From a virus, in the UHGV virus genome UHGV-1882081: a DNA stretch of 42,643 nt, one strand, 5' to 3'. A program made the translations under genes and the position numbers. Positions 1 to 41,313 of this stretch are shown in pieces (positions within the stretch are counted from its first letter, which is position 1; the number at the start of each line of letters is the position of its first letter). The notes under the pieces are model-generated. The model saw nothing but the letters and a program-made list of their open reading frames with translations. It was not told the origin of the DNA and made no database searches.

Positions 1-974
1 ATGGTGAAACCGCAGCAACTACAGCATTTTGAGGACGGTAAATACTGGTCAATGGCGACCACTGACCGCCCGGCCCATTTGCCTTTGTACTGGAGCTGGC
101 GAACAAGTTCGCTCCAGCCTGCGTCAGCTATTGCTTTAGACAGCTTCGGGTTGCGGATCATGTTTTTCACCTTGAGGGATTCGACGCAAACAACTTGGTT
201 TTCGTTAATCAGTTTGCGGGACAACTTGTGCAGATTGTCCATCCGGCAATCGGCGATTTTCGCGTGGAGTCGGGCGACCTTTAAGCGGGCTTTAATACGG
301 TTTCTTGAGCCTTTTTGCTTCCTGCTTAAACGTCGCTGTAGCAGCGTTAATCGCTTCGCATATTTAGCGGTGTGGCGGGGATTGTCGGTTTTGAATCCGG
401 TATCGGTGACGAATAAATCTTTTAAGCCCACATCAATGCCGACCGTTTTAGCGGTAACAGGCATTGATACAGGTTCAAACTCACACAGGCAGGAAACAAA
501 GTACCTGCCAGCGCTATCTCTGGAAATGGTAACGGTTGACGGCGCAGATGGTAATTCTCGACTCCAGCGAACATCCAGCGGCGACTTGCTCTTTGCTATA
601 TACAACTCGCCGTCACGGTGTTTAAACGCGCTGGCAGTGAACTCAGCCACCTGTTTGTGCCGTTTGCTTTTGAAAGCCGGATATGCAGCTCGTCCGGCAA
701 AGAAGTTAGCAAAGGCGGCTTGTTGGTGGCGCAACGACTGCTGGAGGGGAACGCAGGAAACATCATTCAGCCATATGTATTCAGGCTCTTTTTTGAGCGC
801 CGTAAGGCGAGCGTTGGCCTGTAGATAACCGATCTTTTCTTTTCGCTCGTAGTACGCATCGGTACGCCAACGAAGGATGGAATTGTAGACGAAGCGCACA
901 CAGCCAAACGTCTGAGCTAAAAGCTCAGCCTGCTCAGTTGTCGGGTAAAACCGGTATTTATATGCGCGTTTCAT
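1..974 (-). CDS. tnpB: IS200/IS605-family TnpB (OrfB) RNA-guided nuclease, N-terminal part; gene runs off the window start
   Basis: Minus-strand translation from ATG at 974 reads MKRAYKYRFYPTTEQAELLAQTFGCVRFVYNSILRWRTDAYYERKEKIGYLQANARLTALKKEPEYIWLNDVSCVPLQQSLRHQQAAFANFFAGRAAYPAFKSKR..., with a GIDVGLK RuvC-I-like motif further in. Not in the supplied ORF track because it has no stop inside the window. The 1..828 + ORF is its antisense shadow. Confidence 0.75.
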   Translation of the reverse strand, partial: MKRAYKYRFYPTTEQAELLAQTFGCVRFVYNSILRWRTDAYYERKEKIGYLQANARLTALKKEPEYIWLNDVSCVPLQQSLRHQQAAFANFFAGRAAYPAFKSKRHKQVAEFTASAFKHRDGELYIAKSKSPLDVRWSRELPSAPSTVTISRDSAGRYFVSCLCEFEPVSMPVTAKTVGIDVGLKDLFVTDTGFKTDNPRHTAKYAKRLTLLQRRLSRKQKGSRNRIKARLKVARLHAKIADCRMDNLHKLSRKLINENQVVCVESLKVKNMIRNPKLSKAIADAGWSELVRQLQYKGKWAGRSVVAIDQYLPSSKCCSCCGFT

Positions 975-1649: not shown

Positions 1650-1664
1650 TTAGTATAAAAAAGC
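1650..1664. repeat. 15-bp lambda att core, prophage/host junction (attR, bio side)
   Basis: ttagtataaaaaagc = reverse complement of the lambda core GCTTTTTTATACTAA; identical copy at 41299-41313. Flank 1641-1649 tcgctcaag matches the attB arm CTTGAGCG. Confidence 0.9.
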
Positions 1665-1812
1665 TGAACGTGAAACATTAAAAACCATTAATATCAATGT
1701 GTTACAATATCTTTAGTCTAAAAAATAGACTGCATAATGCTACAAAACACAACATATCCAGTCACTATGAATCAACCACTTAGATGGTATTAGTGACCTG
1801 TAACAGAGCATT
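1665..1812 (+). promoter_or_regulatory. attP P-arm (Int arm-type, IHF, Xis, Fis binding region), lambda-like
   Basis: Reads ...cagtcactatgaatcaaccacttagatggtattagtgacctgtaacaga..., recognisably the lambda P-arm in reverse complement with a few differences. Confidence 0.8.
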
Positions 1813-1854
1813 AGCGCAAGGTGATTTTTTGTCTTCTTGCGCTAATTTTTTGTC
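1813..1854 (+). terminator. tI terminator / sib retroregulator hairpin (lambda-like)
   Basis: attagcgcaag ... cttgcgctaat inverted repeat followed by tttttt; same orientation as int, as expected for tI beyond attP. Confidence 0.7.
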
Positions 1855-1951
1855 ATAAAAACATGTCGCACTCCAGAGAAGCACAAAGCCTTGCAATCCA
1901 GTGCAAAGCTTTGTGTACCTTAGTTTTGTTTCATAGGTAACTCTGTGTTAA

Positions 1952-2254
1952 CTACGATGCAAGAATCCATACCAATAAGCATCCGATAATTGGGAAAGAA
2001 AAATCCAATAGACTTCCCACATCCCACACGCGCGGATCAAAACCGCCCCACCACGGCATATTCATACGCTTGCCGTGCCCGAACATTTCAATCCAGCGAT
2101 ATTCTGCCTGGGTGTGTTCACGCGCAATGAAGAACGTACAACCAGCTATCGCACCGTAAACCCAGTTTCCGGTAAAAAGACCAACCAGAACTTGTGCGAC
2201 AACAGCGCAAAGTGCGTGAAGAATTGGTGTTATATCAACTTCTATATTCATCAT
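1952..2254 (-). CDS. hypothetical small membrane protein (two hydrophobic segments) between tailspike gene and attR
   Basis: 100-aa ORF with hydrophobic stretches ILHALCAVVAQVLVGLFTGNWVYGAIAGCTFFIA and FSFPIIGCLLVWILAS; occupies the position of O-antigen conversion genes in P22-like phages; no homolog recognised. Confidence 0.4.
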   Translation of the reverse strand: MMNIEVDITPILHALCAVVAQVLVGLFTGNWVYGAIAGCTFFIAREHTQAEYRWIEMFGHGKRMNMPWWGGFDPRVWDVGSLLDFSFPIIGCLLVWILAS

Positions 2255-2330
2255 AAATAACTCATTCCATTTTCACAAATAAGCCGCCAACAAGAAGACG
2301 GCATTAACATTAAAATAATTATATATGATG

Positions 2331-4322
2331 CTATTCCTCAATACCTAACCTGCTTGAAACCTCCGGCATAACAGTAACCTGAAGGGTTTTTGATGAATCT
2401 GTGTTTTTAATTGCTATGCTTATATTGTCAGAAGTGCTGTTATTGTTTGACACTGTTATAGAGTTTGCATCCACCCCGAGTTTCGAATAAGCATCAGCAA
2501 AACTAAGACCAACACTTCCACCAACAACTCTATATGAACCATCAATTCTGAATGACGATATATTGTTATTGCTAACATCTCTAATTAGAACCCATATAGA
2601 AACACCCCTGAAAACAAGGCTTGCCCCTGATGGTATTTGAAGTGATACAGTTCCTGTGGAACCCGGGGGGATACTGCCAGTATATTTAGTTCCGTGCAGA
2701 TATTTCCCCGGTAGATCTAAATACGATGTATCTGGCTGCAATAAATTATGTATATGTCTGCTATCTATGCTTCCAGACAGAACCATAGAATCATTTCCAT
2801 ATTCAATTATCCTTCCACCATCGTTACTTATTGTAAGTAATCCTTTGTTTCCTTTATTGTTTCTAACAGTTATATCAGAAGAATCCAGGCGGACAATTGA
2901 TATATTTTTTTCTGTTCCATGACAATAATTTGATGAAATTTCACCTGTAACAAGTGACGTACATAAAATGTCTGAACTTCCATCACTGTCGCCAGTAATA
3001 GTGTTACAGGAAATTAATGCACCATATACCAGACCTGTCGGAGATTCTCCAAATTGCTCTATAGTAATCCGTTTTGTGGTATTTGCTGATATGGTTATAT
3101 TATGAACATCGTCAGTTTGCGATGTTACTTTGATCCTTGATGAAACGGTATTTCCAGAAATAGTAACATTACTTGTATCATCCACCCATAAATATGACGA
3201 AAACGTATTACATGATATGACTGAGTTACTCACCATTGAGTTCTCAAGCTCACATGAACCATAGCTATTGTTATGGTCATAATTTCCTATAATCCTTACA
3301 AATCCATTCTGGTTAATGAAGTTGTATGATGTTGCATTTTGTCCGCCATAAGTTGAGTTATGCGATGTTTCAGCATTTGTAACGCCTATATGTTGAAAAT
3401 GACCGGCATTTACAGAATCAGGAGCAACTGATGTACACCCTATTATTTTTGTATTTTTGACAGTTCTTGAATTAGGGTCATTCTCCAAATAATAGTTTTT
3501 TGCAACAAATGCCGTAGAGTAAAAGAAACCTTCAAATCTATTAAATAAAATCTGAATATCGTCATAATCTCTTTGGTCTTCATTTGCATAGCAATAAAAT
3601 GCTCTTGAAGACTCGGAGTAATCCTTGCATTTCTGAACACCAGATAAAAGTGATCGTATTCTGCTAGATTTTATTCTAAATCCGTTGTGAATTAACGTTG
3701 CATCACCAACCAATGTTATTGGCTTAAGCAATTCAACCTTATCAAAAACAAATTCACCACCATAAAATCCAAGTATAGCCCCTTCTGGTACTGCATTAAT
3801 AGCATTTTGAATTGCTACAGTATCATCTGTTATGCCGTCTCCTTTTGCACCAAAATCACTAACACTAATGTGCTCGGCATTTTTTTGATGCTGCGTCCTT
3901 CTTATTGACAAGGTGAATGGTTGTTTTACTGCTATTAATGCATCTCCAAGATCATCACCTGAACTTGCTAACTCCTGCCTTAACTGATCCGGGTCATACT
4001 TCAGCACATTTGGAAAATAGAACTGCTGCGCACCATACGCATCATAAACAGCCATAGAATGGCCTTGCACAGTTACGAACTTGGCAATCTGTCCGTTATA
4101 TACCGGATATCCAGCAGCGTTAATGATGATTGGCTGTTCAACAGGAACGTGAGAGGCGTCTTCGTTCTCCACATAAACCTGAATCTGGTTTTCAGGGTTT
4201 ACCGGGTCAGTGTCAATTTTACCGATATAAATTTTGCCATTGGCTACGGCTTTAAAAGAACGAGCCATAGTGAAGAGTTGCGAAGGCATCGATACGATCA
4301 CATTGGCTGTAATGTCTGTCAT
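2331..4322 (-). CDS. tailspike protein: P22/HK620-like N-terminal head-binding domain fused to a right-handed beta-helix polysaccharide depolymerase domain
   Basis: N-terminus [55 protein letters not shown]... matches P22 gp9/HK620 tailspike head-binding domain; downstream [19 protein letters not shown] is the pectate-lyase-3-type motif of depolymerases. The 3' two-thirds is markedly AT-rich. Confidence 0.9.
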
Positions 4323-6745: not shown

Positions 6746-8860
6746 CTATTCATATTCATTCATACCGCTTAACGAGGCGACAATACCAGCTCTCGACAAG
6801 CGATTGAATTCATCGCTACCAATAGCATCGCGTATTGCTTTTACGGCGGCTTTATTTGCCATAAATCTGCGTTCCGCCGCCGCTAATGCTTCTTTACTTC
6901 CGCCAGCTCTTACTGCTTTCGTGGCTTCCTGAACTGCTTTCTCTATCGCATATCGACCGCTACGCGTGGTGGCAATTTTAGATACAGCACCTTTTAACCC
7001 GGCGCCAACTAAAGCACCTGCGGCAGCGCCTGCAATGCCCCCTCCTGCTCCACCAACAATGGCACCTGATGTTGAGTTGGCAATTGCATTTAACACTGTT
7101 GATGTGACGTTGGATAAACCGGCATCCAGATCGCGTAGTACATTGGCGGTTCTCCCTGTTCTTTCAATATACTGCTGAGGTTTCACTGCTGCTCTTGCAA
7201 GAGTGCCATATGCATCTGCAATTCTTCCAAGCTCTGAGGAATATCGGCTAATGGCTTTTACATTTTGTGGAGTGAGTATCTCTGCGATATGGTTAATTCC
7301 TGCTGCATCAGCTTTGCCACCACGTACACCATGCGAGATAGCATCTTGCAACATTGATGATATAGCAGGAACACGCTCTGATTCTGGCAGCGCGCGGATC
7401 ATAGAATGGAACCCAGCAGGACCATTAAGACCTTTAGCTGACGATGATTGAAGGGATTTTACTCCATTCGTAATCAGTGCATCTGTTGCCAAATCACGCC
7501 CGAAAACAGACTCTGCACTCTCTTGTGCTGATAACCTCGCTTTAGACAGATCATTAGCTTTCTGCCAGTCATCAAGAAATCCGCCGTTTTCCGCCATTGT
7601 GCGCATATCATCAGTAATTGCCCGGCGTATTTCCCCTGCTCTCCTTGCCGCATTTGCCTCTCCGCTACGCTTATATTTTTGCTCCGCATCAGCAAATTTC
7701 GCTCTCCATGCTTTCATGCCATCAAATGTTACTCCACCTTGATTGTTTGCCTGAACAAACTGTTTCATTTCAGGAGTAAGCGGTATGCCAGCAGATCGCT
7801 CTGCCTGAATAACGGCATTACCATTTAGCATTCTTGCTTTTTGATTTGGCATTGTTGACCGCACGTCATCCCATGCCGCGCGCTCGGCATCCTTCATCTG
7901 ATCAAGATTTTGAAGAATCCTTTGTTTTATAGCCGCACTTTTTTCTGATGCCGTTCCAGATGCGGCCCCAAATTCATCAAGGTTTCGACTTAACTTTGAT
8001 GATATTTCGTTAAATGCTGCCTGATGGGCATCCTGAACAATTCCTGGTGTTGATGCCAATGCGCCTTCGGCTTGTGCAATTCCACGACTTCCAGATCGCA
8101 TTCCTGGTGTTAATGCGTTTATATCAATTCCAGCAGACTCAGCCGCTTTTGCTACATCTTCGGACACATTAGCGGCCTGACTGGCAATTGACTGACGCCC
8201 TGCACCTGACTTTGCCATCCTGGAAACATCATTAGCAGAATTCAGTGCTGCACCACCAAGAGCCTGTGAAACCCTTGGCGCAATAACGCGCCCGGCACCT
8301 GAAAGAACGCCTTGAGCACCAATATTGATACCACCGTTAATGGCAGCATTTTGTGCAAAGTCGCCCTCCTGATTTGCAGCATCAGCAAGAGAACCTGCAA
8401 TCATGTTTCCTGCGGAACCGATATCTCCAGCGAGCTTTGCTGGCGCTCCAGCAGCTTTTGCCGCTGTGCCAATTGGCAGGAGATACCCACCAATTGTTTC
8501 ACCGGCTTGCGCGTAAGGGTCTGTCGGTCGATCGACAGGGCGATAAACATCATCCAAAACCTTTGGGCCACCAAGCCCCTGGCTGATAGCATTAATCAGA
8601 CTTGCGCCACCCTGCAATACGTCAAATGGTATGTTTACCAGACCACGACCAGCCTGTTCTGCAATTTGCCCGGCACTTTGACCACCAGTGAGCCAGTCAG
8701 TAGCTTTTCCTACCAGAGATTGTTCTTCTGGCTGCGATTGGTTTTGAGTGGATTGATCATCAGAAGACAGCATCTGAGCAATGCGACGTGCTCCCTCAGT
8801 ATCGCCGGCAGCATCAGCATTCCTTAACGCCGTCATCAACTGTTCACGACTATAGGCCAT
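6746..8860 (-). CDS. ejection (E) protein, P22 gp16-like
   Basis: 704-aa ORF, last gene of the virion operon, Gly/Ala-rich; order gp7-gp20-gp16 conserved. Confidence 0.75.
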
Positions 8861-39958: not shown

Positions 39959-40177
39959 ATGTACTTGACTCTTCAGGAGTGGAACGCTCGCCAGCGACGC
40001 CCAAGAAGCCTTGAAACAGTTCGTCGATGGGTGCGCGAATGCAGGATATTCCCTCCTCCGGTTAAGGATGGAAGAGAGTATCTGTTCCACGAATCAGCGG
40101 TAAAGGTTGACTTAAATCGACCAATAACAGGTAGCCTTTTGAAGAGGATCAGAAATGGGAAGAAGGCGAAGTCATGA
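39959..40177 (+). CDS. xis: excisionase Xis (lambda-type)
   Basis: 72-aa ORF MYLTLQEWNARQRRPRSLETVRRWVRECRIFPPPVKDGREYLFHESAVKVDLNRPITGSLLKRIRNGKKAKS matches lambda Xis; overlaps int start. Confidence 0.95.
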   Translation: MYLTLQEWNARQRRPRSLETVRRWVRECRIFPPPVKDGREYLFHESAVKVDLNRPITGSLLKRIRNGKKAKS

Positions 40178-41225
40178 GCGCCGGGATTTACCCCCTAACC
40201 TTTATATAAGAAACAATGGATATTACTGCTACAGGGACCCAAGGACGGGTAAAGAGTTTGGATTAGGCCGAGACAGGAGGATAGCAATCACTGAAGCAAT
40301 ACAGGCCAACATTGAGTTATTTTCAGGACACAAACACAAGCCTCTGACAGCGAGAATCAACAGTGATAATTCTGTTACGTTACATTCATGGCTTGATCGC
40401 TACGAAAAAATCCTCGCCAGCAGAGGAATCAAGCAGAAGACACTTATAAATTACATGAGCAAAATTAAAGCAATAAGGAGGGGTCTGCCTGATGCTCCAC
40501 TTGAAGACATCACCACAAAAGAAATTGCGGCAATGCTCAATGGATACATAGACGAGGGCAAGGCGGCGTCAGCCAAGTTAATCAGATCAACACTGAGCGA
40601 TGCATTCCGAGAGGCAATAGCTGAAGGACATATAACAATAAACCCGGTCGCTGCCACTCGCGCAGCAAAATCAGAGGTAAGGAGATCAAGACTTACGGCT
40701 GACGAATACCTGAAAATTTATCAAGCAGCAGAATCATCACCATGTTGGCTTAGACTTGCAATGGAACTGGCTGTTGTTACCGGGCAGCGTGTTGGTGATT
40801 TATGCGAAATGAAGTGGTCTGATATCGTAGATGGCTATCTTTATGTCGAGCAAAGCAAAACCGGCGTAAAAATTGCCATCCCAACAACATTGCATGTTGA
40901 TGCTCTTGGGATATCAATGAAGGAAACACTTGATAAATGCAAAGAGATTCTTGGCGGAGAAACCATAATTGCATCTACTCGTCGTGAACCGCTTTCATCC
41001 GGCACAGTATCAAGGTATTTTATGCGCGCACGAAAAGCATCAGGTCTTTCCTTCGAAGGGGATCCGCCTACCTTTCACGAGTTGCGCAGCTTGTCTGCAA
41101 GACTCTATGAGAAGCAGATAAGCGATAAGTTTGCTCAACATCTTCTCGGGCATAAGTCGGACACCATGGCATCACAGTATCGTGATGACAGAGGCAGGGA
41201 GTGGGACAAAATTGAAATCAAATAA
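40155..41225 (+). CDS. int: integrase Int (lambda tyrosine recombinase)
   Basis: 356-aa ORF MGRRRSHERRDLPPNLYIRNNGYYCYRDPRTGKEFGLGRDRRIAITEAIQANIELFSGHKH... matches lambda Int in sequence and length. Confidence 0.97.
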   Translation: MGRRRSHERRDLPPNLYIRNNGYYCYRDPRTGKEFGLGRDRRIAITEAIQANIELFSGHKHKPLTARINSDNSVTLHSWLDRYEKILASRGIKQKTLINYMSKIKAIRRGLPDAPLEDITTKEIAAMLNGYIDEGKAASAKLIRSTLSDAFREAIAEGHITINPVAATRAAKSEVRRSRLTADEYLKIYQAAESSPCWLRLAMELAVVTGQRVGDLCEMKWSDIVDGYLYVEQSKTGVKIAIPTTLHVDALGISMKETLDKCKEILGGETIIASTRREPLSSGTVSRYFMRARKASGLSFEGDPPTFHELRSLSARLYEKQISDKFAQHLLGHKSDTMASQYRDDRGREWDKIEIK

Positions 41226-41298: not shown

Positions 41299-41313
41299 TT
41301 AGTATAAAAAAGC
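41299..41313. repeat. 15-bp lambda att core, prophage/host junction (attL, gal side)
   Basis: ttagtataaaaaagc identical to 1650-1664; followed by aggc (attB arm GCCTGCTTTTTTATACTAA in reverse complement). Confidence 0.9.

What the first reader, a model, noticed from the sequence alone, without database searches (positions are those of the whole stretch)
1861..2330. Small membrane-protein gene at the conversion-gene hotspot between tailspike and attR
P22-like phages carry serotype-conversion genes (gtrABC, oac) between the tailspike gene and attP. Here that slot holds a single 100-aa ORF (1952-2254, minus) with two predicted hydrophobic segments and no similarity I recognise. It lies just beyond the lambda-type tI/sib hairpin. 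It may be a remnant or a new lysogenic-conversion/exclusion factor.
Basis: inference. Interest (0 to 1): 0.45.

Follow-up and report, generated by a model that had tools for sequence, protein, structure and literature searches.

The report
Conserved small membrane gene behind tailspike
The 100-codon ORF is a real, strongly conserved gene for a small inner-membrane protein of unknown function that sits directly behind the tail-fibre or tailspike gene in hundreds of phages and about a third of E. coli genomes; it is not a serotype-conversion remnant.

Summary
It lies between a P22-type tailspike gene (2331-4322) and the lambda-type sib/tI hairpin and att core (1650-1664). This is the bio-proximal end of a complete 39.6-kb prophage in att-lambda.

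It is not random and not a remnant:
- It matches PHROG 1443 (unknown function) end to end, E 7e-55.
- It has 579 clusters of relatives, and dN/dS is 0.13.
- 1924 of 5426 complete E. coli genomes carry a match.
- AlphaFold2 gives a confident three-helix membrane model (pLDDT 90).

No similarity to any named family was found in Pfam, NCBIfam, PADLOC, PDB or by Foldseek. GtrA, Oac, holins and exclusion proteins are therefore not matched.

The main finding is positional. In podo-, sipho- and myovirus prophages and in phage-plasmids, the gene is the cistron immediately after the receptor-binding-protein module. It is usually 0-80 nt downstream, sometimes overlapping, with no promoter-like site of its own. 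It therefore looks co-transcribed late with the tailspike rather than expressed as a prophage conversion gene. Orphan chromosomal copies also exist in Aeromonas, Leclercia and sphingomonads.

Function is not established. My best guess is an envelope-acting exclusion or entry-blocking accessory protein that does not depend on tailspike specificity (low confidence).

The parts
1952..2254 (-). Gene for a 100-aa (99 aa from the second ATG) small membrane protein, a member of PHROG 1443. Predicted helices are 9-28, 31-58 and 79-99. The signature motif is A-R-E-H-T-Q-A-E-Y-R-W-I (44-55) followed by N-M-P-W-W-G-G-F-D (64-73).
2283..2302 (-). Terminator-like GC hairpin plus T-rich tail (GCCGTC-loop-GGCGGC TTATTTG) in the 76-nt AT-rich spacer between the tailspike stop codon and the ORF start.
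   Evidence: spacer GC 29%; an analogous hairpin sits in the 27-nt gap of another architecture (L096)
2331..4322 (-). Tailspike gene (663 aa). It has a P22-type head-binding domain (residues 1-113) and a low-GC pectate-lyase-like receptor-binding part. It is the upstream cistron of the module.
1866..1918 (-). Structured region just downstream of the ORF. It contains a 14-bp hairpin (1885-1918) and a weak terminator-like hairpin (1886-1866). It lies inside the lambda-homologous attP-arm/sib DNA.
1808..1852 (+). Lambda-type tI/sib hairpin followed by a T-run on the + strand. It terminates int-direction transcripts and is not a terminator for the ORF's strand.
1650..1664 (.). Lambda att core at the prophage end next to ybhB/bio (attR). 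The partner core is at 41299-41313 beside int.

Best explanation
Shown:
- The ORF is a genuine protein-coding gene for a roughly 95-100-aa integral membrane protein with three predicted helices.
- It belongs to a large, unnamed family (PHROG 1443). The nearly invariant polar residues are H13 (helix 1) and R45, E46, Q49 and E51 (exit of helix 2), together with the non-polar A50, W77 and P88. D84 is invariant among close relatives only.
- In phages it is the cistron right after the receptor-binding-protein module (tailspike, or tail fibre with or without its assembly protein).

Inferred:
- It has no promoter of its own. It is transcribed with the tailspike as the last gene of the antiterminated late operon, reading through the small hairpin at 2302-2283. 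The protein is therefore made during lytic growth rather than from the repressed prophage.
- It inserts in the inner membrane N-out/C-in. The conserved 35-residue loop (45-80) and an H13/E46/D84 polar cluster would then sit at the periplasmic face.

Speculative commitment:
- It acts on a generic envelope component, not on the specific receptor of the linked tailspike. It blocks or alters an entry or adsorption step of later-arriving phages or sibling progeny, that is, an exclusion-type accessory function.
- It moves with receptor-binding-protein cassettes when these are exchanged by recombination.
For: Real gene:
- PHROG 1443 at E 6.8e-55, covering 94 of 97 profile positions.
- 579 clusters at 90% identity and 456 clusters at 50% identity, all stand-alone proteins of about 90-130 aa.
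- Invariant and near-invariant columns hold at 30-57% overall identity.
- dN/dS is 0.13 over 48 distinct alleles.
- AlphaFold2 pLDDT 89.7, three helices.

Linkage to the receptor-binding-protein module:
- JEP4: the tailspike stop codon overlaps the ORF start.
- Phage 21: stf, then a 92-aa ORF, then this gene 12 nt later.
- HannyBb.
- Leclercia P2-like prophage: tail fibre ends at 7000 and the gene starts at 7001.
- Salmonella contig: the gene lies between two tailspike genes.
- Citrobacter siphovirus-type prophage.
- Phage-plasmid pAVS0747-B.
- 74 of 79 E. coli-type viral contigs have the preceding same-strand ORF ending 76 nt or less upstream.
- In a diverse viral set (GC 44-66%), 46 of 59 loci have a same-strand ORF of 300 aa or more just upstream. 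Of those 46, 25 hit tail-fibre PHROG 17635 and 24 hit tailspike PHROG 1171. Pfam gives Peptidase_S74 in 16, Pect-lyase in 8, Tail_spike_N in 5 and Head_binding in 4.
- The same tailspike+ORF pair occurs at another att site.

No own promoter.

Independence from tailspike specificity: E. coli copies are 80-98% identical behind unrelated receptor-binding proteins. The ORF has the phage-average GC (46.5%), while the tailspike receptor-binding part has 36%.

Topology: loop 1 and the C-terminal tail are net positive (+0.9/-0.1 and +2.4/-0.5). The long loop is charge-balanced (+4.6/-4.1).

Analogy (established knowledge): cor of phi80/N15/T1 and llp of T5 are small envelope proteins encoded beside receptor-binding-protein genes that exclude phages. 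P22 SieA is a three-TM inner-membrane exclusion protein (PMC10883804).
Against: - No direct evidence of any exclusion activity.
- No hit in PADLOC and no hit to any annotated exclusion PHROG.
- Syntenic, non-prophage chromosomal copies exist in Aeromonas spp. (pirin | gene | RIO1) and Leclercia. Some sphingomonad copies lie next to ligA. These look more like a housekeeping role than a defence gene.
- Strict conservation of polar residues across Proteobacteria suggests catalysis or ion binding rather than a fast-evolving anti-phage interface.
- Some virulent Aeromonas phages carry the gene away from tail genes.
- Many genomes hold 2-7 copies, each apparently intact. That is odd for a function that acts in trans.
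- Promoter absence rests on a simple consensus scan.
- Counting K+R alone, the topology is ambiguous.
Confidence: 0.33

Rival explanations
1. Phage-cycle accessory: a late membrane protein needed for the phage's own lytic programme. Examples would be a holin/antiholin-type lysis-timing modulator or a membrane step tied to release. It would not act against other phages.
For: - Tight coupling to late structural genes and no own promoter.
- In Comamonas-type prophages it lies directly between the tail-tip gene and a holin-like/endolysin/spanin-like cassette.
- Each prophage keeps its own intact copy under purifying selection, even with 2-7 copies per genome.
- In T7 and T4 the holin gene follows the tail-fibre genes (established knowledge).
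Against: - There is no charged C-terminal tail in the E. coli proteins.
- Only one weak hit to a Pfam holin family, in 1 of 53 members.
- The degree of sequence conservation and the chromosomal orphan copies are atypical for holins.
- Lambda and P22 themselves do without it (my knowledge, consistent, where no match to a lambda or P22 record appears among the listed rows).
Confidence: 0.2
2. Borrowed housekeeping protein: a small inner-membrane enzyme, ion-binding subunit or lipid-interacting subunit of proteobacteria. The H/E/D polar cluster would sit at one membrane face. Phages have picked it up, and it sits behind receptor-binding-protein genes mainly because that junction is a recombination and insertion hot spot.
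For: - Syntenic chromosomal copies in Aeromonas and Leclercia, and sphingomonad copies in housekeeping neighbourhoods (ligA, RNase PH, DAHP synthase).
- Near-invariant H13, R45, E46, Q49 and E51 at 30% overall identity.
- No co-variation with receptor-binding-protein type.
- The ends of the ORF are themselves mosaic junctions.
Against: - No conserved neighbour or operon partner anywhere.
- No Pfam, NCBIfam or PDB relative to suggest a chemistry.
- The adjacency to receptor-binding-protein genes across very different phage types and GC contents is stronger than expected for passive hitch-hiking.
Confidence: 0.2
3. One reading: a lysogenic-conversion factor expressed from the prophage that alters O-antigen/LPS (serotype conversion) or otherwise changes the lysogen surface.
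For: - The position next to attR is where P22-like phages carry gtrABC or oac (PMC8787464; established knowledge).
- The linked receptor-binding proteins are mostly polysaccharide-degrading spikes (Pect-lyase, S74-type, GDSL esterase).
- It is a membrane protein.
Against: - No similarity to GtrA/B/C or acyltransferase_3.
- No promoter-like site.
- The protein is the same behind tailspikes of different specificity.
- It is present on a 160-kb contig carrying several tailspike genes, an arrangement I take from memory to be that of virulent Ackermannviridae phages (not verified), and in large Aeromonas phages.
- It is present in sphingomonads, which lack LPS O-antigen (established knowledge).
Confidence: 0.1
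4. Non-functional: a chance ORF or decaying remnant in att-adjacent DNA.
For: None beyond the lack of annotation ('hypothetical protein' everywhere).
Against: Full-length family match, hundreds of homologues from Alpha-, Beta- and Gammaproteobacteria plus Desulfovibrio, dN/dS 0.13, and a confident fold.
Confidence: 0.02

Closest known systems
PHROG 1443 (uncharacterised phage protein family; e.g. phage 21 CPT_21_24 'putative membrane protein', JEP4_21, RefSeq WP_048230122.1 / WP_039052559.1 'hypothetical protein')
   Same: Full-length HMM match (E 6.8e-55). Same size, same motif, same position behind the tail-fibre or tailspike gene.
   Different: Nothing of substance. The N-terminal 5 residues and the upstream 76-nt spacer differ from most relatives, because the mosaic junction lies at the start of the gene.
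Cor (phi80, N15, HK022, T1) and Llp (T5): small envelope proteins encoded beside receptor-binding-protein genes that block the receptor FhuA
   Same: Small envelope protein encoded at the distal end of, or next to, the tail-fibre/receptor-binding-protein genes.
   Different: Cor and Llp are outer-membrane lipoproteins matched to the receptor of the linked receptor-binding protein. This protein has no lipobox: residues -3 to -1 before C16 are H-A-L, and C16 is not conserved. It is a polytopic inner-membrane protein and does not co-vary with the receptor-binding protein. There is no sequence similarity.
P22 SieA (inner-membrane superinfection-exclusion protein)
   Same: Predicted three-TM inner-membrane protein of a P22-like phage (PMC10883804).
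   Different: SieA is 162-164 aa, lies between gene 16 and gene 9, is prophage-expressed, and carries a cytoplasmic FxRYPxEAxxFNK motif that is absent here. No PHROG or Pfam link was found.
GtrA / Oac serotype-conversion proteins of P22-like and Shigella phages
   Same: Membrane proteins encoded between the tailspike gene and the att site.
   Different: GtrA is a 4-TM protein of about 120 aa (PF04138) that works with GtrB and GtrC. Oac is a roughly 330-aa acyltransferase_3. Neither Pfam family is matched even at E<=1, and there are no partner genes here.
Holins placed after tail-fibre genes (T7 gp17.5, T4 t)
   Same: Small membrane protein directly downstream of the receptor-binding-protein gene, expressed late.
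   Different: No charged C-terminal tail, no adjacent endolysin in this window's locus, much higher sequence conservation, and chromosomal orphan copies.

Membership tests
PHROG 1443 (unknown function) | Full-length match to the family profile | tested here: met
   E 6.8e-55; residues 6-99 align to profile positions 1-94 of 97.
PHROG 1443 (unknown function) | Family signature seen in alignments: H in helix 1, [AG]-R-E-x-[TA]-Q-A-E-Y-R-W, M-P-W-W-G-G-F-D, W77, D84-x3-P88 | tested here: met
   All are present in the window protein. H13, R45, E46, Q49, A50, E51, W77 and P88 are at least 90% conserved in 53 distant members.
GtrA-like flippase (PF04138) | Pfam GtrA match, about 120 aa, four TM helices, adjacent gtrB/gtrC | tested here: not met
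   No Pfam hit at E<=1, and none in 53 relatives. Three helices. No further ORFs between the tailspike gene and att.
O-antigen acetyltransferase Oac (Acyl_transf_3, PF01757) | Polytopic acyltransferase of about 330 aa | tested here: not met
   100 aa; no Pfam hit.
P22 SieA exclusion protein | 162-164 aa, three TM helices, conserved FxRYPxEAxxFNK motif, located between gene 16 and gene 9 (PMC10883804) | tested here: not met
   The motif is absent from the sequence. Size and position differ. The only PHROGs matched are unannotated ones. No direct pairwise comparison with a SieA sequence was run.
Cor/Llp receptor-blocking lipoproteins | Lipoprotein signal peptide with a lipobox cysteine | tested here: not met
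   The residues before C16 are H-A-L, not [ASTVI]-[GAS]. C16 is replaced by A/I/V in homologues.
Holin | Small TM protein with a charged C-terminal tail, next to an endolysin, matching a holin family | tested here: not met
   The C-terminus is ...VWILAS. The neighbours are the tailspike gene and att. Only 1 of 53 relatives gives a weak Phage_holin_8 hit, E 0.0036. Lysis activity itself is not testable here.
Moron (autonomous promoter-gene-terminator insert with deviant composition) | Own promoter upstream, terminator downstream, GC unlike the neighbours | tested here: not met
   No usable sigma-70-like site: the only match overlaps the start codon, and there is none in four other architectures. 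GC is 46.5% against a window mean of 47.1%. Expression itself was not tested.
Known anti-phage defence proteins (PADLOC-DB 2.0) | Match to a defence-system HMM | tested here: not met
   No hit for the window protein. Only three scattered single-member hits (best E 0.0019, HamA1) among 53 relatives.

The most novel reading that the evidence does not exclude
PHROG 1443 may be an unrecognised class of envelope effector linked to the receptor-binding-protein module. It would be a three-helix inner-membrane protein with a conserved H/E/D polar site facing the periplasm, made late together with tail fibres or tailspikes. It would act on a generic, conserved envelope target, for example a lipid-linked polysaccharide/undecaprenyl pathway step or the inner-membrane DNA-entry step. 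The effect would be to shut the door behind the infecting phage or protect released progeny. It would have been recruited from a housekeeping proteobacterial protein and is now carried by prophages in about a third of E. coli genomes.
Probability: 0.22. Interest if true: 0.65.

Novelty: new member of a known kind. Interest (0 to 1): 0.38.

Why it matters
The individual gene is ordinary. Near-identical copies are in RefSeq as 'hypothetical protein'.

The family, however, is one of the commonest uncharacterised prophage genes in E. coli, with matches in 1924 of 5426 complete genomes. It has a very regular position, immediately behind receptor-binding-protein genes of podo-, sipho- and myoviruses and of phage-plasmids.

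If its role were found, it would annotate thousands of genes. It might also reveal a generic late-acting envelope function tied to host-recognition modules, which is relevant to host-range engineering when tailspike cassettes are swapped. Finally, it corrects the assumption that everything between the tailspike gene and att in P22-like phages is a conversion gene.

Tried and rejected
- Family libraries: Pfam, NCBIfam and PADLOC scans of the protein and of 53 distant relatives gave only noise.
- Solved structures: a PDB sequence profile search found nothing. Foldseek of the pLDDT-90 model against PDB and BFVD gave no match at E<=0.001. The best hits were PSI subunit L, Sec61 and SemiSWEET at probabilities of 0.4 or less, plus fragments of the same family.
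- Distant-member search: a second homology search from a divergent member (P0257) to reach annotated relatives returned only hypothetical proteins without Pfam domains.
- Literature: searches for the PHROG id, protein accessions, and tailspike/attP/moron/exclusion terms found nothing on this family.
- Kapi1 'hyp24': this ORF, also between a tailspike and int, was tested for seroconversion with negative results in PMC8787464. It turned out to be an unrelated 34-aa ORF on the other strand.
- Conserved partner gene: all-versus-all clustering of ORFs in the loci then in hand (68 genome-contig loci plus earlier ones) found no universal neighbour. Chromosomal neighbourhoods (a GGDEF cyclase, a MetE-like gene with an ABC transporter, a porin, pirin, RIO1, LigA) gave no functional clue.
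- Promoter: a search upstream of the gene in five architectures found none.
- The alignment A2 was too diverse for the search for related loci.

Full report
**1. What is in the sequence**

The left end of the window reads as follows.
- A truncated IS605-type tnpB ORF lies at 3-974 on the minus strand (Pfam OrfB_IS605).
- ybhB lies at 1083-1559 (PBP family; annotated ybhB in the closest genome).
- The lambda att core GCTTTTTTATACTAA lies at 1650-1664.
- About 270 bp follow that are 89-94% identical to the attP arm and tI region of lambda, HK106 and 434. This stretch includes the + strand hairpin and T-run at 1808-1852.
- The 100-codon ORF lies at 1952-2254 on the minus strand.
- A 76-nt spacer with 29% GC follows, containing a terminator-like hairpin at 2302-2283.
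- The 663-aa tailspike gene lies at 2331-4322 on the minus strand. It has a P22 head-binding domain and a pectate-lyase-like part.
- Upstream of the tailspike gene are a P22-type antirepressor gene and Arc/Mnt-like genes.

The second att core is at 41299-41313, just after a lambda-type int gene (40155-41225) and before ybhC. The window therefore holds a complete P22-like prophage of about 39.6 kb in att-lambda. The ORF is its last gene at the int-distal (attR, bio-proximal) end.

**2. It is a real gene**

- The protein matches PHROG 1443 ('unknown function') over its whole length, E 6.8e-55.
- A search of 5.8 billion clustered proteins found 579 clusters with E<=1e-3, all named 'hypothetical protein' or unnamed, and none with a Pfam domain.
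- A profile search of 1.84 billion representatives found 456 clusters at 50% identity. All of the 150 listed are stand-alone proteins of roughly 60-150 aa, most of them 90-130 aa.
- Among 35 closer relatives, 26 columns are invariant.
- Among 53 relatives only 30-57% identical, E46 and W77 are invariant. H13, R45, Q49, A50, E51 and P88 are at least 90% conserved.
- Across 48 distinct alleles from E. coli-type viral contigs, the median dN/dS is 0.13 at a median dS of 0.36.
- There is one copy in the window.
- blastn finds the gene in 1924 of 5426 complete E. coli genomes. The median is 2 places per genome and the maximum is 7. Sixty-four places are on plasmids.

'Remnant' and 'random ORF' are excluded.

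**3. The protein**

Hydropathy shows two hydrophobic blocks, at residues 9-44 and 81-100. AlphaFold2 with a 35-sequence alignment gives a confident model (mean pLDDT 89.7, pTM 0.72) with helices at 9-28, 31-58 and 79-99.

Helix 2 leaves the hydrophobic region at R45-E46 and continues as the amphipathic, almost invariant stretch REHTQAEYRWI. The loop G59-D78 carries the motif NMPWWGGFD.

In a helical hairpin with its turn at residues 29-30, H13 faces E46. D84 and P88 lie one to two turns into helix 3 from the same face. So H13, R45/E46 and D84 would form a polar cluster near one membrane surface. This is an inference from the helix register, because I could not inspect model coordinates.

Across 58 distinct genome-encoded members, the charge counts are as follows.

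| Segment | K+R | D+E |
|---|---|---|
| Short loop 1 | 0.9 | 0.1 |
| C-terminal tail | 2.4 | 0.5 |
| Long loop (45-80) | 4.6 | 4.1 |

This favours N-out/C-in with the conserved loop in the periplasm, but not decisively. The phage 21 annotators recorded a TMHMM prediction of two TM domains, N-in/C-in. That prediction also puts the loop outside.

**4. No link to any characterised family**

- Pfam, NCBIfam and PADLOC give nothing for the protein or for 53 relatives.
- A PDB profile search found nothing.
- Foldseek against PDB and BFVD gave no match at E<=0.001.
- A further homology search from a divergent member gave only hypothetical proteins.
- Literature searches found no paper on the family.
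- Kapi1 'hyp24' is a superficially similar ORF between a tailspike and int. It was tested experimentally for seroconversion with negative results (PMC8787464). It is an unrelated 34-aa ORF on the other strand.

**5. The informative feature is where the gene sits**

In E. coli phages and prophages the gene follows the last gene of the receptor-binding module on the same strand. There are four architectures.
- Tailspike, then the gene. The gap ranges from -35 to +76 nt. In JEP4 the stop and start codons overlap.
- Side tail fibre, then a 92-aa ORF, then the gene 12 nt later (phage 21 type).
- Tail fibre, then a 227-234-aa assembly protein, then the gene 10 nt later.
- A 346-aa tail fibre, then the gene 27 nt later.

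In 74 of 79 E. coli-type IMG/VR loci, the preceding same-strand ORF ends 76 nt or less upstream. Many of these loci are near-duplicates.

The same arrangement holds in other settings.
- A P2-like Leclercia prophage: the tail fibre with a Peptidase_S74 domain ends at 7000, and the gene starts at 7001.
- A Citrobacter siphovirus-type prophage: GpJ-like protein, pectate-lyase tailspike, then the gene.
- An SSU5-size phage-plasmid.
- Halomonas, where the gene follows a DUF4376 tail-fibre-assembly-type protein.
- A 160-kb Salmonella contig, where the gene lies between two TSP1/Gp66-type tailspike genes. From my own knowledge this arrangement is typical of virulent Ackermannviridae. I did not verify that here.

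In a second, more diverse IMG/VR sample (GC 44-66%), 46 of 59 loci have a same-strand ORF of 300 aa or more ending just upstream. Of those 46:
- 25 match tail-fibre PHROG 17635 and 24 match tailspike PHROG 1171;
- every functionally annotated family in the top 25 is a tail protein;
- Pfam finds Peptidase_S74 in 16, Pect-lyase in 8, Tail_spike_N in 5 and Head_binding in 4.

The gene belongs to the tailspike module, not the att module. Strain Ecol_881 has the same 663-aa tailspike and a 97%-identical ORF in a prophage inserted next to dacD.

The protein does not track tailspike specificity. E. coli copies are 80-98% identical behind unrelated receptor-binding proteins. Here the ORF has the phage-average GC (46.5%), whereas the receptor-binding part of the tailspike has 36%. 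Homology with other phages breaks inside the first and last few codons of the ORF. The gene is therefore also the conserved right-hand flank of a swappable tailspike cassette.

**6. Exceptions to the phage context**

- Aeromonas media, A. aquatica, A. taiwanensis and A. rivipollensis carry a syntenic chromosomal copy between a pirin gene and a RIO1 kinase gene. No phage genes are nearby.
- Leclercia species carry a syntenic copy between a GGDEF cyclase gene and a MetE-like gene with an ABC-transporter cluster.
- Some sphingomonad copies lie in housekeeping neighbourhoods. Four upstream neighbours in the genome-contig sample, which I attribute to sphingomonad loci, are NAD-dependent DNA ligase.
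- Some Aeromonas phages carry the gene among small early-type ORFs or next to a helicase/terminase gene.
- No neighbour is conserved across the family.

**7. Expression (inferred)**

A sigma-70 consensus scan finds no usable promoter on the gene's strand here. The single match overlaps the start codon. There is also none in four other architectures. Gaps of 0-27 nt and overlapping stop/start codons leave no room for a promoter.

A terminator-like hairpin separates the tailspike gene from the ORF here and in the 346-aa-fibre architecture. In lambdoid and P22-like phages, the late operon, including the tailspike gene, is transcribed by antiterminated polymerase that reads through such terminators (established knowledge).

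The simplest reading is that the ORF is the terminal late cistron, perhaps at reduced level. This is not the promoter-gene-terminator layout of a classical moron or conversion gene.

**8. What it most likely does**

Shown:
- It is a conserved small membrane protein.
- It is the terminal cistron of the receptor-binding module.
- It is independent of receptor specificity.
- It is unrelated to gtr and oac.

Beyond that, function must be guessed. The four readings below carry my estimated probabilities.
- **Envelope-acting exclusion or entry-blocking protein made late (about 0.33).** This rests on analogy with cor and llp, which are small envelope proteins encoded beside receptor-binding genes, and with three-TM inner-membrane exclusion proteins such as P22 SieA (PMC10883804).
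- **Role in the phage's own late programme, such as lysis timing or release (about 0.2).** Support comes from the tight late coupling, the position next to the lysis cassette in Comamonas prophages, and the retention of several intact copies per genome.
- **Borrowed housekeeping membrane enzyme or ion site (about 0.2).** Support comes from the chromosomal orthologues and the invariant polar residues.
Against it are the lack of a promoter, the lack of co-variation with tailspike type, the copy on the multi-tailspike 160-kb contig and in large Aeromonas phages, and the presence in sphingomonads, which lack O-antigen.

**9. Verdict**

It is partly wrong: it is not a remnant, not a conversion-slot gene, and probably not prophage-expressed.

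The gene is a new member of a catalogued but uncharacterised family. Interest in this single instance is modest. Interest in the family is moderate, because it is extremely common and has a strikingly regular linkage to host-recognition genes.

Noticed in passing
window 3-974 (minus strand): A truncated IS605-family tnpB ORF (OrfB_IS605, HTH_OrfB_IS605 and Cas12f1-like TNB domains) runs off the left edge, directly upstream of ybhB. The closest reference genome has bioA at that position.
   Followed up: partly
window 1650-1664 and 41299-41313; int 40155-41225; ybhC from 41360: Both lambda att cores are present. The window therefore holds a complete P22-like prophage of about 39.6 kb with a lambda-type integrase, inserted in att-lambda between ybhB and ybhC.
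   Followed up: yes
window 2331-4322: The tailspike is a mosaic. Its head-binding N-terminus has 43% GC and the pectate-lyase-like receptor part has 36% GC. The same tailspike plus ORF occurs in strain Ecol_881 in a prophage at a different att site next to dacD (L163).
   Followed up: partly
L080 7001-7297 (Salmonella enterica assembly, 160-kb contig): A family member lies between two TSP1/Gp66-type tailspike genes on a 160-kb contig that looks like an Ackermannviridae-type phage genome inside a bacterial assembly. Salmonella phage KFSST3 (156 kb) has an unannotated partial match.
   Followed up: partly
L005, L015, L016, L020, L027 (Aeromonas); L017, L024, L025, L028, L030 (Leclercia): Syntenic chromosomal copies of the family occur outside any prophage. 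In Aeromonas the copy lies between pirin and RIO1 kinase genes, two genes away from two lipid A acyltransferase genes. In Leclercia it lies beside a GGDEF cyclase gene and a MetE-like gene with an ABC-transporter cluster.
   Followed up: partly
L001 3710-3988; also L012, L089, L117 and others: A conserved 92-93-aa ORF of unknown function sits between the side tail fibre gene and the family gene in phage-21-type prophages (cluster 7). A 72-aa ORF occupies the same place in the Comamonas prophage L004. Whether the two are related was not tested.
   Followed up: no
alignment A5 (upstream neighbours in L164-L241): Sixteen of 46 receptor-binding proteins immediately upstream of the family gene end in a Peptidase_S74 intramolecular-chaperone domain. 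This enrichment is unexplained.
   Followed up: no
window 1885-1918: A perfect 14-bp hairpin lies 33 nt downstream of the ORF stop, inside the lambda-homologous attP-arm/sib DNA. The whole 1800-1955 minus-strand RNA folds with a z-score of -5.0.
   Followed up: no
L162 (plasmid pAVS0747-B, 105 kb); phage PhiR41_1 (108 kb): The family also occurs on plasmids of about 105 kb that carry phage tail genes (phage-plasmids), again right after a tail-fibre gene. There are 64 plasmid matches among complete E. coli genomes.
   Followed up: partly
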